From the NCBI GenBank assembly GCA_964016885.1, contig OZ024741.1:212908001-212972000 (forward strand): a stretch of DNA of 64,000 bases. The letters are read 5' to 3'. The position numbers and the translations under genes are program-made. Shown here piece after piece: positions 31,045 through 32,256 of this stretch. The stretch is from Eledone cirrhosa (Eukaryota). The notes under the pieces were generated by a model, which saw only the letters and a program-made list of their open reading frames with translations, ran no database searches and was not told the DNA's origin. Each line of letters begins with the position of its first letter. The first letter of the stretch is position 1.

Positions 31045-32256
31045 AGTATGTATGTATACGTACATACATATATGTATACAGACGTACAGTAGCATGCATA
31101 TATATATATATATATATATATATATATATATATATATATACATACAGGTACACATACATATATGCACGCATCAGTTTAGCGGACGCTTATTATAACGCCG
31201 CTTTGTTCGTTTGTCAACAAACTGAACAGCCTGACCGATTTAACTCACTCAATATGCAAATTAGGCTGCTCAGCCGTTAATTTTCATAAGGAAAGTATAT
31301 ACTTTCGAACGTTCAACTATCTGGCAGATGGGTAAACGGTGATGATGATAGCTAACAAGCTTGAAACTAGTACATCGTTCCTGTGTCAGTGTTGAACAAA
31401 AAGGTGACGTGGTTGCCTTAACACCGTATGGCATAAATTCAGGCTGTTCGGTTCGTTGACAAACGAACAAAGCGGCGTTATAATAAGCGTCCGCTAAACT
31501 GATGCGTGCATATATGTATGTGTACCTGTATGTATATATATATATATATATATATATATATATATATATATATATATATATATATATATATATATATATA
31601 TATATATATATATATATATATATATATATATATGCATGCTACTGTACGTCTGTATACATATATGTATGTACGTATACATACATACTTACATTTAAGTAAG
31701 TGCCATTCTAAGAGTGAGAAATGAAATTTCGTTTTCATTTTTTTCAACTTATCGTTTTCGGTATGCCTGACCGATTTAACTCACTCAATATGCAAATTAG
31801 GCTGCTCAGCCGTTAATTTTCATAAGGAAAGTATATACTTTCGAACGTTCAAATATCTGGCAGATGGGTAAACGGTGCTGATGATAGCTAACAAGCTTGA
31901 AACTAGTACATCGTTCCTGTGTCAGTGTTGAACAAAAAGGTGACGTGGTTGCCTTAACACCGTATGGCATAAATTCCGGCTGTTCAGTTTGTTGACAAAC
32001 GAACAAAGCGGCGTTATAATAAGCGTCCGCTAAACTGATGCGTGCATATATGTATGTGTACCTGTATGTATATATATATATAAATATATATATATATATA
32101 TATATATATATATATATATATATATATATATATATATGCATGCTACTGTACGTCTGTATACATATATGTATGTAGGTATACATACATACTTACATTTAAG
32201 TAAGTGCCATACTAAGAGTGAGAAATGAAATTTCGTTTTCATTTATTTCAACTTAT
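31045..32256 (+). mobile_element. HHR repeat family A array 1 (inverted arm plus about 2 tandem monomers; retrozyme-like)
   Basis: Inverted arm 31045-31233, then direct units with period 536 (longer internal TA tract). HHR at 31335-31379 has core ATGATGA (mutated); HHR at 31871-31915 is intact. Confidence 0.88.
31871..31915 (+). ncRNA. Minimal type I hammerhead ribozyme (family A)
   Basis: aacggtg CTGATGA t agct aaca agct t GAAA cta GTA catcgtt. Confidence 0.88.

What the first reader, a model, noticed from the sequence alone, without database searches (positions are those of the whole stretch)
31045..32256. Retrozyme-like arrays insert with Penelope geometry: inverted 5' arm anchored a fixed distance before the 3' end
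Seen: all three family A loci begin with an inverted arm starting at essentially the same point (agtatg… at about 3413, 31045 and 37471). This leaves an unpaired 3' tail of about 60-66 nt (e.g. 39507-39572), and all lie in (TA)n without obvious TSDs. The autonomous-type element at 13068-17701 shows the same layout with an about 80-nt tail. Established: an inverted partial pLTR plus a short unpaired tail is a hallmark of Penelope-like insertions, and Penelope-like elements are the proposed partners of non-LTR retrozymes. Inference: this is sequence-level evidence that these non-coding repeats are mobilised in trans by Naiad-type RT/GIY-YIG proteins.
Basis: partly seen in the sequence, partly recalled or inferred. 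Interest (0 to 1): 0.78.

Follow-up and report, generated by a model that had tools for sequence, protein, structure and literature searches.

The report
Retrozyme inserted by Penelope twin priming
A non-coding, ribozyme-bearing repeat with thousands of copies sits in this animal genome as two back-to-back arms that end at two fixed points about 60 bases apart, the same footprint left by the genome's Penelope-like retrotransposons, which likely copy it, though probably not the Naiad type first proposed.

Summary
Family A is a 468-nt tandem repeat with a minimal type I hammerhead motif (10,471 exact core matches). In loci picked blind to their ends, 29 of 29 fully resolved two-armed insertions have one arm ending at an inner site and the other at an outer site 59-65 nt further on, almost always against (TA)n, with no poly(A). 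Autonomous Penelope-like elements (PLEs) here obey the same rule (11 of 12; 5 of 5). Two corrections. The neighbouring element is Hydra-clade by motifs, not Naiad, and a Neptune-type PLE matches family A's tail length better. The 'arm' is not subordinate: either arm can be the long multi-unit one, and in 13 of 69 insertions neither arm contains the other. That excludes simple fold-back and points to two priming events on one RNA (inferred). Retrozyme-PLE fusions exist, with Hydra and Neptune-type alike, but deletion explains them equally well. No parent element and no RNA evidence were found. PLE dependence of retrozymes is already proposed in print; the insertion-footprint evidence and the one-inner-one-outer rule were not found in my searches.

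The parts
31045..31234 (-). Family A arm ending at the inner site (unit 223 to 401), abutting (TA)n
31229..32256 (+). Family A arm, about 2.2 units, ending at the outer site (unit 468), abutting (TA)n
31338..31376 (+). Hammerhead motif copy with core C3 mutated (likely inactive)
31874..31912 (+). Intact minimal type I hammerhead motif (CUGAUGA...GAAA, GUA cleavage triplet, palindromic stem III)
32191..32256 (+). Unpaired tail between inner and outer site, with a predicted hairpin
37471..37817 (-). Family A arm ending at the inner site; intact hammerhead motif at 37715-37753
37818..39572 (+). Family A arm, 3.7 units of 468 nt, ending at the outer site; intact hammerhead motifs at 38283, 38757, 39225; tail 39507-39572
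3413..3627 (-). Older family A subfamily arm ending at the inner site
3622..3722 (+). Short arm ending at the outer site; neither arm of this locus contains the other
13068..13214 (-). Hydra-clade PLE (family B) arm ending at its inner site
13210..17701 (+). Hydra-clade PLE: pLTR, broken RT plus C-terminal GIY-YIG ORF (about 14214-16363), pLTR, 81-nt tail (17621-17701)
17511..17606 (+). Hammerhead-like motif of family B with a U3-A8 core variant
39589..40723 (.). Second Hydra family (C): inverted tail piece and 3' region, inserted beside the 37471 locus
41269..41796 (.). Neptune-type PLE pLTR pieces in inverted arrangement

Best explanation
Family A is a non-coding tandem repeat with a hammerhead motif in each 468-nt unit, inserted as two back-to-back arms that end at two fixed sites, and it is likely copied in trans by a Penelope-like reverse transcriptase/endonuclease with a C-terminal GIY-YIG domain. 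Shown: the anatomy, the two fixed ends, the one-inner-one-outer rule, (TA)n targeting, and the same rule in autonomous PLEs here. Inferred mechanism: the protein nicks both strands of a (TA)n tract. Each free 3' end primes reverse transcription on the same multimeric or circular RNA through 2-3 nt of TA microhomology, one at the inner site and one at the outer site. The two cDNAs stop at variable points and are joined at those ends. My odds for the partner: Neptune-type 0.45, Hydra 0.35, both 0.10, Naiad or other 0.10.
For: Ends: 29 of 29 in the end-blind set, and 42 of 42 further resolved two-armed rows (3 rows unresolved). The same rule holds in Hydra family B (11 of 12) and Neptune-type pairs (5 of 5). 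Either arm can be longer: inner arm 12, outer arm 15, about equal 2; the family B ORF-bearing arm ends at outer 13, inner 14, unresolved 3 of 30. In 13 of 69 rows neither arm contains the other, and in 3 (L193, L230, L284) they do not overlap, so one arm is not a fold-back copy of the other. Arms of one insertion differ about as little as units within an arm, mostly below the 3.7% median between insertions, which fits one template. Outer-site arms stop more often right at the inner site: 6 of 70 at unit 407-416 against 2 in the 47 nt upstream (modest, p about 0.01). In vitro, a Poseidon PLE cuts and extends both strands and starts at two RNA sites that flank the genomic tail (PMC11167929). For a Neptune-type partner: tail 59-61 nt against 59-65 in family A, 81-83 in Hydra B and 91 in Hydra C; hammerhead core to inner site 199-244 nt against 277-283 in A and about 100 in Hydra B and C.
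Against: No parent element was found: family A has no similarity to Hydra B or Neptune-type 3' regions, and a profile search of the fetched DNA found only a sister non-coding family. Fusions between family A and PLEs do not single out a partner. Direct junctions were 3 of 5 matches for Hydra B, 2 of 2 for Hydra C, 3 of 4 for a Neptune-type core, and 0 matches for another Neptune core and for Hydra Y. Of 9 such fusions with both ends resolved only 5 are complementary, and several keep one element's own centre, as a deletion between neighbours would. One family B insertion (L106) has two inner ends. Clade calls rest on motifs; Pfam gave no hit for these ORFs and no tree was built. Cleavage, expression and circular RNA are untested.
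Confidence: 0.7

Rival explanations
1. A PLE protein inserts family A, but the second arm is made from the first cDNA by fold-back or second-strand copying rather than by a second priming on RNA.
For: Many insertions have one arm contained in the other, and arms are near-identical. Short palindromes occur at some arm junctions.
Against: In 13 of 69 rows neither arm contains the other and in 3 they do not overlap. Fold-back also gives no reason for the second arm to stop at a fixed site.
Confidence: 0.12
2. Naiad (N-terminal endonuclease) proteins mobilise family A.
For: Naiads target (TA)n and make inverted arms with tails (PMC8557442). The genome was not searched for them directly.
Against: The PLE ORFs actually found have C-terminal endonucleases. 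Naiads lack canonical hammerheads. No Naiad-like ORF was flagged in 664 kb (weak screen, output partly cut).
Confidence: 0.07
3. Family A is the detached pLTR of one PLE family (extinct or unsampled) that expanded locally into satellites, rather than an independent parasite.
For: Xenopus retrozymes match PLE pLTRs and this route is proposed there (10.64898/2026.07.22.740005). Long arrays of more than 7 units occur.
Against: Copies 100% identical to the window unit lie at separate loci with fresh inner and outer ends, and both arms of one insertion can be multi-unit, so arrays move as such. No ORF-linked relative was seen in the fetched DNA. This rival concerns origin and can be true together with the best explanation.
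Confidence: 0.3
4. The inverted arms arise at the DNA level (break-induced fold-back at TA tracts) or are assembly artefacts.
For: Palindromes and TA tracts are unstable and hard to assemble (general knowledge).
Against: Two fixed ends with strict complementarity in 71 of 71 resolved cases, mirrored in ORF-bearing PLEs. Contigs of public run X19 also show strand-changing joints in this repeat (2 joints; the run may not be independent).
Confidence: 0.03

Closest known systems
Metazoan non-LTR retrozymes (Cervera and de la Pena 2020, PMC7229834; passages read)
   Same: [quoted passage not shown]
   Different: Unit of 468 nt is slightly above the 150-450 bp given there. The hammerhead is the minimal PLE-like kind. 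The word 'inverted' does not occur in that paper's main text. circRNA and cleavage were not tested here.
Retrozymes as non-autonomous PLE derivatives (Li, Clavereau, Pollet 2026, 10.64898/2026.07.22.740005; parts 1-3 of 5 read)
   Same: Same overall claim of PLE dependence.
   Different: Their evidence is co-occurrence and pLTR similarity in Xenopus; 'tail' and 'target site' have 0 occurrences in the main text. Here there is no pLTR similarity but there is an insertion footprint. Their supplements were not available to me.
PLE insertion anatomy, Hydra and Neptune clades, non-autonomous Chlamys such as MRC1 (Craig et al. 2021, PMC8557442; passages and section 11 read)
   Same: Inverted 5'-truncated copy, tail at one end, (TA)n targets, multicopy head-to-tail non-autonomous families.
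   Different: Tails here are 59-91 nt rather than 30-40. Non-autonomous Chlamys share 3' sequence with their partners and family A does not. A one-inner-one-outer rule was not stated in the passages read.
Poseidon PLE of Anolis in vitro (Frangieh et al. 2024, PMC11167929; parts 1-2 of 4 read)
   Same: Two internal start sites flanking the tail, both DNA strands cut and extended, AT-rich targets, hammerhead cleavage dispensable.
   Different: That work does not assign one site to each strand (it reports no strand difference in start site) and concerns an autonomous element in cis.
L1 twin priming (Ostertag and Kazazian 2001; recalled, not read)
   Same: Two target strands prime on one RNA and give a 5' inversion.
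   Different: In L1 the second priming site varies and the arms mostly do not overlap. Here both sites are fixed, and arms usually overlap and can span several units.

Membership tests
Non-LTR retrozyme | Tandem units of a few hundred nt, no ORF, low GC, dispersed | tested here: met
Non-LTR retrozyme | Type I hammerhead motif in each unit | tested here: met
   Core, stems I and II and palindromic stem III read from sequence; sister family F keeps both stems with changed letters. Rfam gathering search gave 0 hits and the MFE fold is not the hammerhead fold.
Non-LTR retrozyme | Self-cleavage and accumulation as circular RNA | not testable with these tools
   No RNA holder listed; arm 5' ends show no evident pile-up at the cleavage site, unit 156.
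PLE-type insertion | Inverted truncated copy plus a tail at one end only | tested here: met
PLE-type insertion | No poly(A); microsatellite target; TSD | tested here: inconclusive
   No poly(A) and (TA)n targets are met; a TSD cannot be seen inside (TA)n.
Non-autonomous PLE derivative | 3' or pLTR sequence shared with an autonomous family | tested here: not met
   No similarity to Hydra B or Neptune-type 3' regions; only fetched DNA (under 2 Mb of 3 Gb) was examined.
Naiad (element 13068-17701) | N-terminal GIY-YIG, DKA motif, no hammerhead | tested here: not met
   Endonuclease is C-terminal, motif is DKT, hammerhead-like motif present.
Hydra clade (element 13068-17701) | C-terminal GIY-YIG, RWK, DKT, CxCx5C linker, CxxC and CxH around E and N | tested here: met
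   Intact copies show RWR, DKT, CNCPDRSIC, CNLC and CKH; nearest Atlas clusters are unnamed animal proteins.
Hydra clade (element 13068-17701) | Canonical hammerhead in the pLTR | tested here: inconclusive
   Family B has a U3-A8 core variant in 25 of 34 matches; family C has a canonical core.
Hydra clade (element 13068-17701) | Placement in the RT phylogeny | not tested
   No reference set in hand.
Neptune clade (second PLE type in G000) | C-terminal GIY-YIG with CX2-5CxxC linker | tested here: met
   CTNRKCIIC linker upstream of the GIY-YIG motif; phylogeny not tested.

The most novel reading that the evidence does not exclude
Penelope-like elements insert by obligate twin priming: the two nicked target strands each prime on the same RNA, one at an inner and one at an outer fixed site, so every two-armed insertion carries exactly one tail. 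A hammerhead retrozyme with no sequence similarity to any PLE found here has copied this two-site signal and borrows the enzyme, sometimes in one event with PLE RNA.
Probability: 0.5. Interest if true: 0.72.

Novelty: new member of a known kind. Interest (0 to 1): 0.52.

Why it matters
Which enzyme moves animal retrozymes, and how PLEs make their inverted repeats and tails, are both stated as open in the papers read. This family supplies a footprint for the first question and a countable rule for the second. It also offers a short RNA with two mapped start sites, plus intact young candidate enzymes (many near-identical 784-aa frames), so both questions become directly testable in vitro. The idea of PLE dependence itself is not new.

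Tried and rejected
Rfam: 0 hits. RNA evidence: no RNA holder listed, which is no evidence either way. Fusions as proof of a Hydra partner: attractive at first (L142, L166, L151, L293), dropped after two-outer-end cases (L295, L315, L316) and Neptune-type fusions (L317, L319, L320) turned up. The matched tandem-orientation search gave 0 direct junctions of 8 against 3 of 5 head-to-head, too few to decide. A first fusion pattern found only the known case. A non-PLE control was not possible because the mariner end was absent from the 600-kb sample. Arms from different subfamilies, which would show two RNAs: the high values that I checked (L178, L270) were junction artefacts. Parent element: not found. 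My first reading that family B lacks a hammerhead was corrected. Left out of the end counts as complex or unresolved: L021, L194, L250 (an apparent inner/inner piece inside an expanded TA tract), L227, L003, L253, L254, and six termini of the end-blind set. PDB sequence search found nothing meaningful. The scan's own notes had nothing.

Full report
The window lies on contig C2 of a 3.0-Gb, (TA)n-rich animal genome, G000. Unit coordinates below refer to window 38636-39103 (468 nt).

Observation. Self-comparison and the raw sequence confirm three family A loci with an inverted arm starting at 3413, 31045 and 37471 and a sense arm that runs 60-67 nt further along the unit. The element at 13068-17701 has the same layout with an 81-nt tail.

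What family A is. It has no ORF. Each unit carries a minimal type I hammerhead motif at unit 119-164, with a predicted cut after unit 156 and a palindromic stem III of the kind reported to cleave as dimers (dimer cleavage from passages). Rfam does not score it. A sister family with a 466-nt period keeps both stems with changed letters. The 35-nt core matches 10,471 times in G000 and 0 times reversed. This fits the description of non-LTR retrozymes; cleavage and circular RNA are untested.

Ends genome-wide. I took the first 100 core matches on C1, 51 loci, chosen without regard to ends. Tallied by eye, 82 of 88 arm 3' termini lie at an inner site (three sub-sites, unit 403, 405 and 409, used 8, 36 and 17 times) or an outer site (468), and 6 are unresolved. 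All 29 two-armed insertions with both ends resolved have one of each. A further 42 resolved rows, from loci picked on one end or on similarity, agree; 3 rows there were unresolved. Arms always point their 3' ends outward. Flanks are (TA)n, occasionally (CA)n or a later insertion; there is no poly(A), and TSDs cannot be judged. Pattern counts give 2,335 outer junctions and 1,823 forward-strand inner junctions.

The neighbouring PLE. Intact relatives encode 784-795-residue frames with RT first and GIY-YIG last. Their motifs match the published Hydra definition point by point, not Naiad. Pfam has no hit; the Atlas places them among unnamed animal proteins with HTH_animal or GIY-YIG labels. Several other Hydra families and a Neptune-type PLE are present, and those whose ends I inspected also sit in (TA)n. 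The one-inner-one-outer rule holds in 11 of 12 two-armed Hydra-B insertions (with the window copy) and 5 of 5 Neptune-type pairs.

Mechanism. Either arm can be the long one (inner 12, outer 15, equal 2), and both can hold several units. In 13 of 69 rows neither arm contains the other, and in three they do not overlap. So the second arm is not simply a fold-back copy of the first. Divergence between arms tracks divergence within arms, which fits one template. Outer arms stop just beyond the inner site in 6 of 70 cases against 2 in the longer stretch upstream (one further row was an internal deletion), as expected if one polymerase meets the other's primer. With the in vitro result that a PLE cuts and extends both strands and starts at two sites flanking the tail, the simplest reading is twin priming on one uncleaved multimeric or circular RNA. 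This step is inferred, at about even odds.

Which partner. Family A resembles neither Hydra B nor Neptune-type 3' regions in sequence. Its tail (59-65 nt) and hammerhead-to-inner-site distance (277-283 nt) are nearer to Neptune-type (59-61; 199-244) than to Hydra B and C (81-91; about 100), although these are features of the RNA and need not be set by the protein. Direct fusions of a family A arm to a PLE arm occur with Hydra B (L142, L166, L293, L295), Hydra C (L151, L315, L316), probably another Hydra pLTR (L185), and Neptune-type (L317, L319, L320). Of the 9 with both ends resolved, 5 are complementary. They are rare, and deletion between neighbours in crowded TA tracts explains them as well as two-RNA events do. 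I give Neptune-type 0.45, Hydra 0.35, both 0.10, Naiad or other 0.10.

Prior work. PLEs were proposed as partners of retrozymes in 2020, and a 2026 preprint argues for PLE origin from co-occurrence and pLTR similarity. Inverted arms, tails and multicopy non-autonomous PLEs are described. Searches for retrozyme + Penelope + inverted, Penelope-like + twin priming + inverted, and pLTR + inverted + chimeric or second strand returned no paper whose title or abstract start reports this footprint for retrozymes or a one-inner-one-outer rule; most of those hits were seen as listings only. Older subscription papers on Penelope structure are outside the library, and the preprint's supplements were closed, so the rule may be known informally.

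Verdict. A real, well-supported feature and a new member of a known kind. The Naiad label is wrong for the element at hand and the partner is open. The geometric rule is a useful, testable addition. Interest 0.52.

Noticed in passing
window 17511-17606; L091-L120: Hydra family B carries a hammerhead-like motif with a U3-A8 core pair instead of C3-G8 (25 of 34 matches), cutting about 19 nt before its inner site; a standard CUGANGA search misses it.
   Followed up: partly
G000; L103-L118: Hydra-clade PLEs, described as a small mostly cnidarian group, are abundant and young here: many near-identical 784-aa frames, tandem arrays with a 3.5-kb period, and several diverged families. Family B alone covers about 0.9% of a 600-kb sample.
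   Followed up: partly
L306:836-2635; L019, L245: Sister retrozyme family F, 466-nt period, related tail and hammerhead with changed but paired stems, also in inverted-arm form.
   Followed up: partly
window 18762-19352, 45323-45999, 52151-52488: Another hammerhead-bearing repeat (family D) with inverted arms in TA tracts; no ORF link checked.
   Followed up: no
window 37364-37423, 42256-42315, 44444-44805, 46087-46515: Common TA-tract palindromes that match pLTR ends of further Hydra families (Y and G), judged from sequence downstream of ORFs in L309 and C10.
   Followed up: partly
window 12505-12725, 23534-23641, 27650-27745, 33804-33992, 35087-35278, 40853-41255, 42636-42958, 54427-54673, 60236-60388: A high-copy short repeat, in places in inverted pairs, not identified.
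   Followed up: no
G000:C2:212705269-212708701: A seven-unit family A array 100% identical to the window unit lies about 240 kb away, pointing to very recent movement.
   Followed up: no
window 56647-60006, 6038-8192, 3897-4756, 11279-12154: A LINE with an intact 1119-aa RT frame, a broken LINE, and two mariner-like remnants.
   Followed up: no
runs X19-X24: Family A sequence is held by runs of four coded organisms, so it is not confined to one species label.
   Followed up: no
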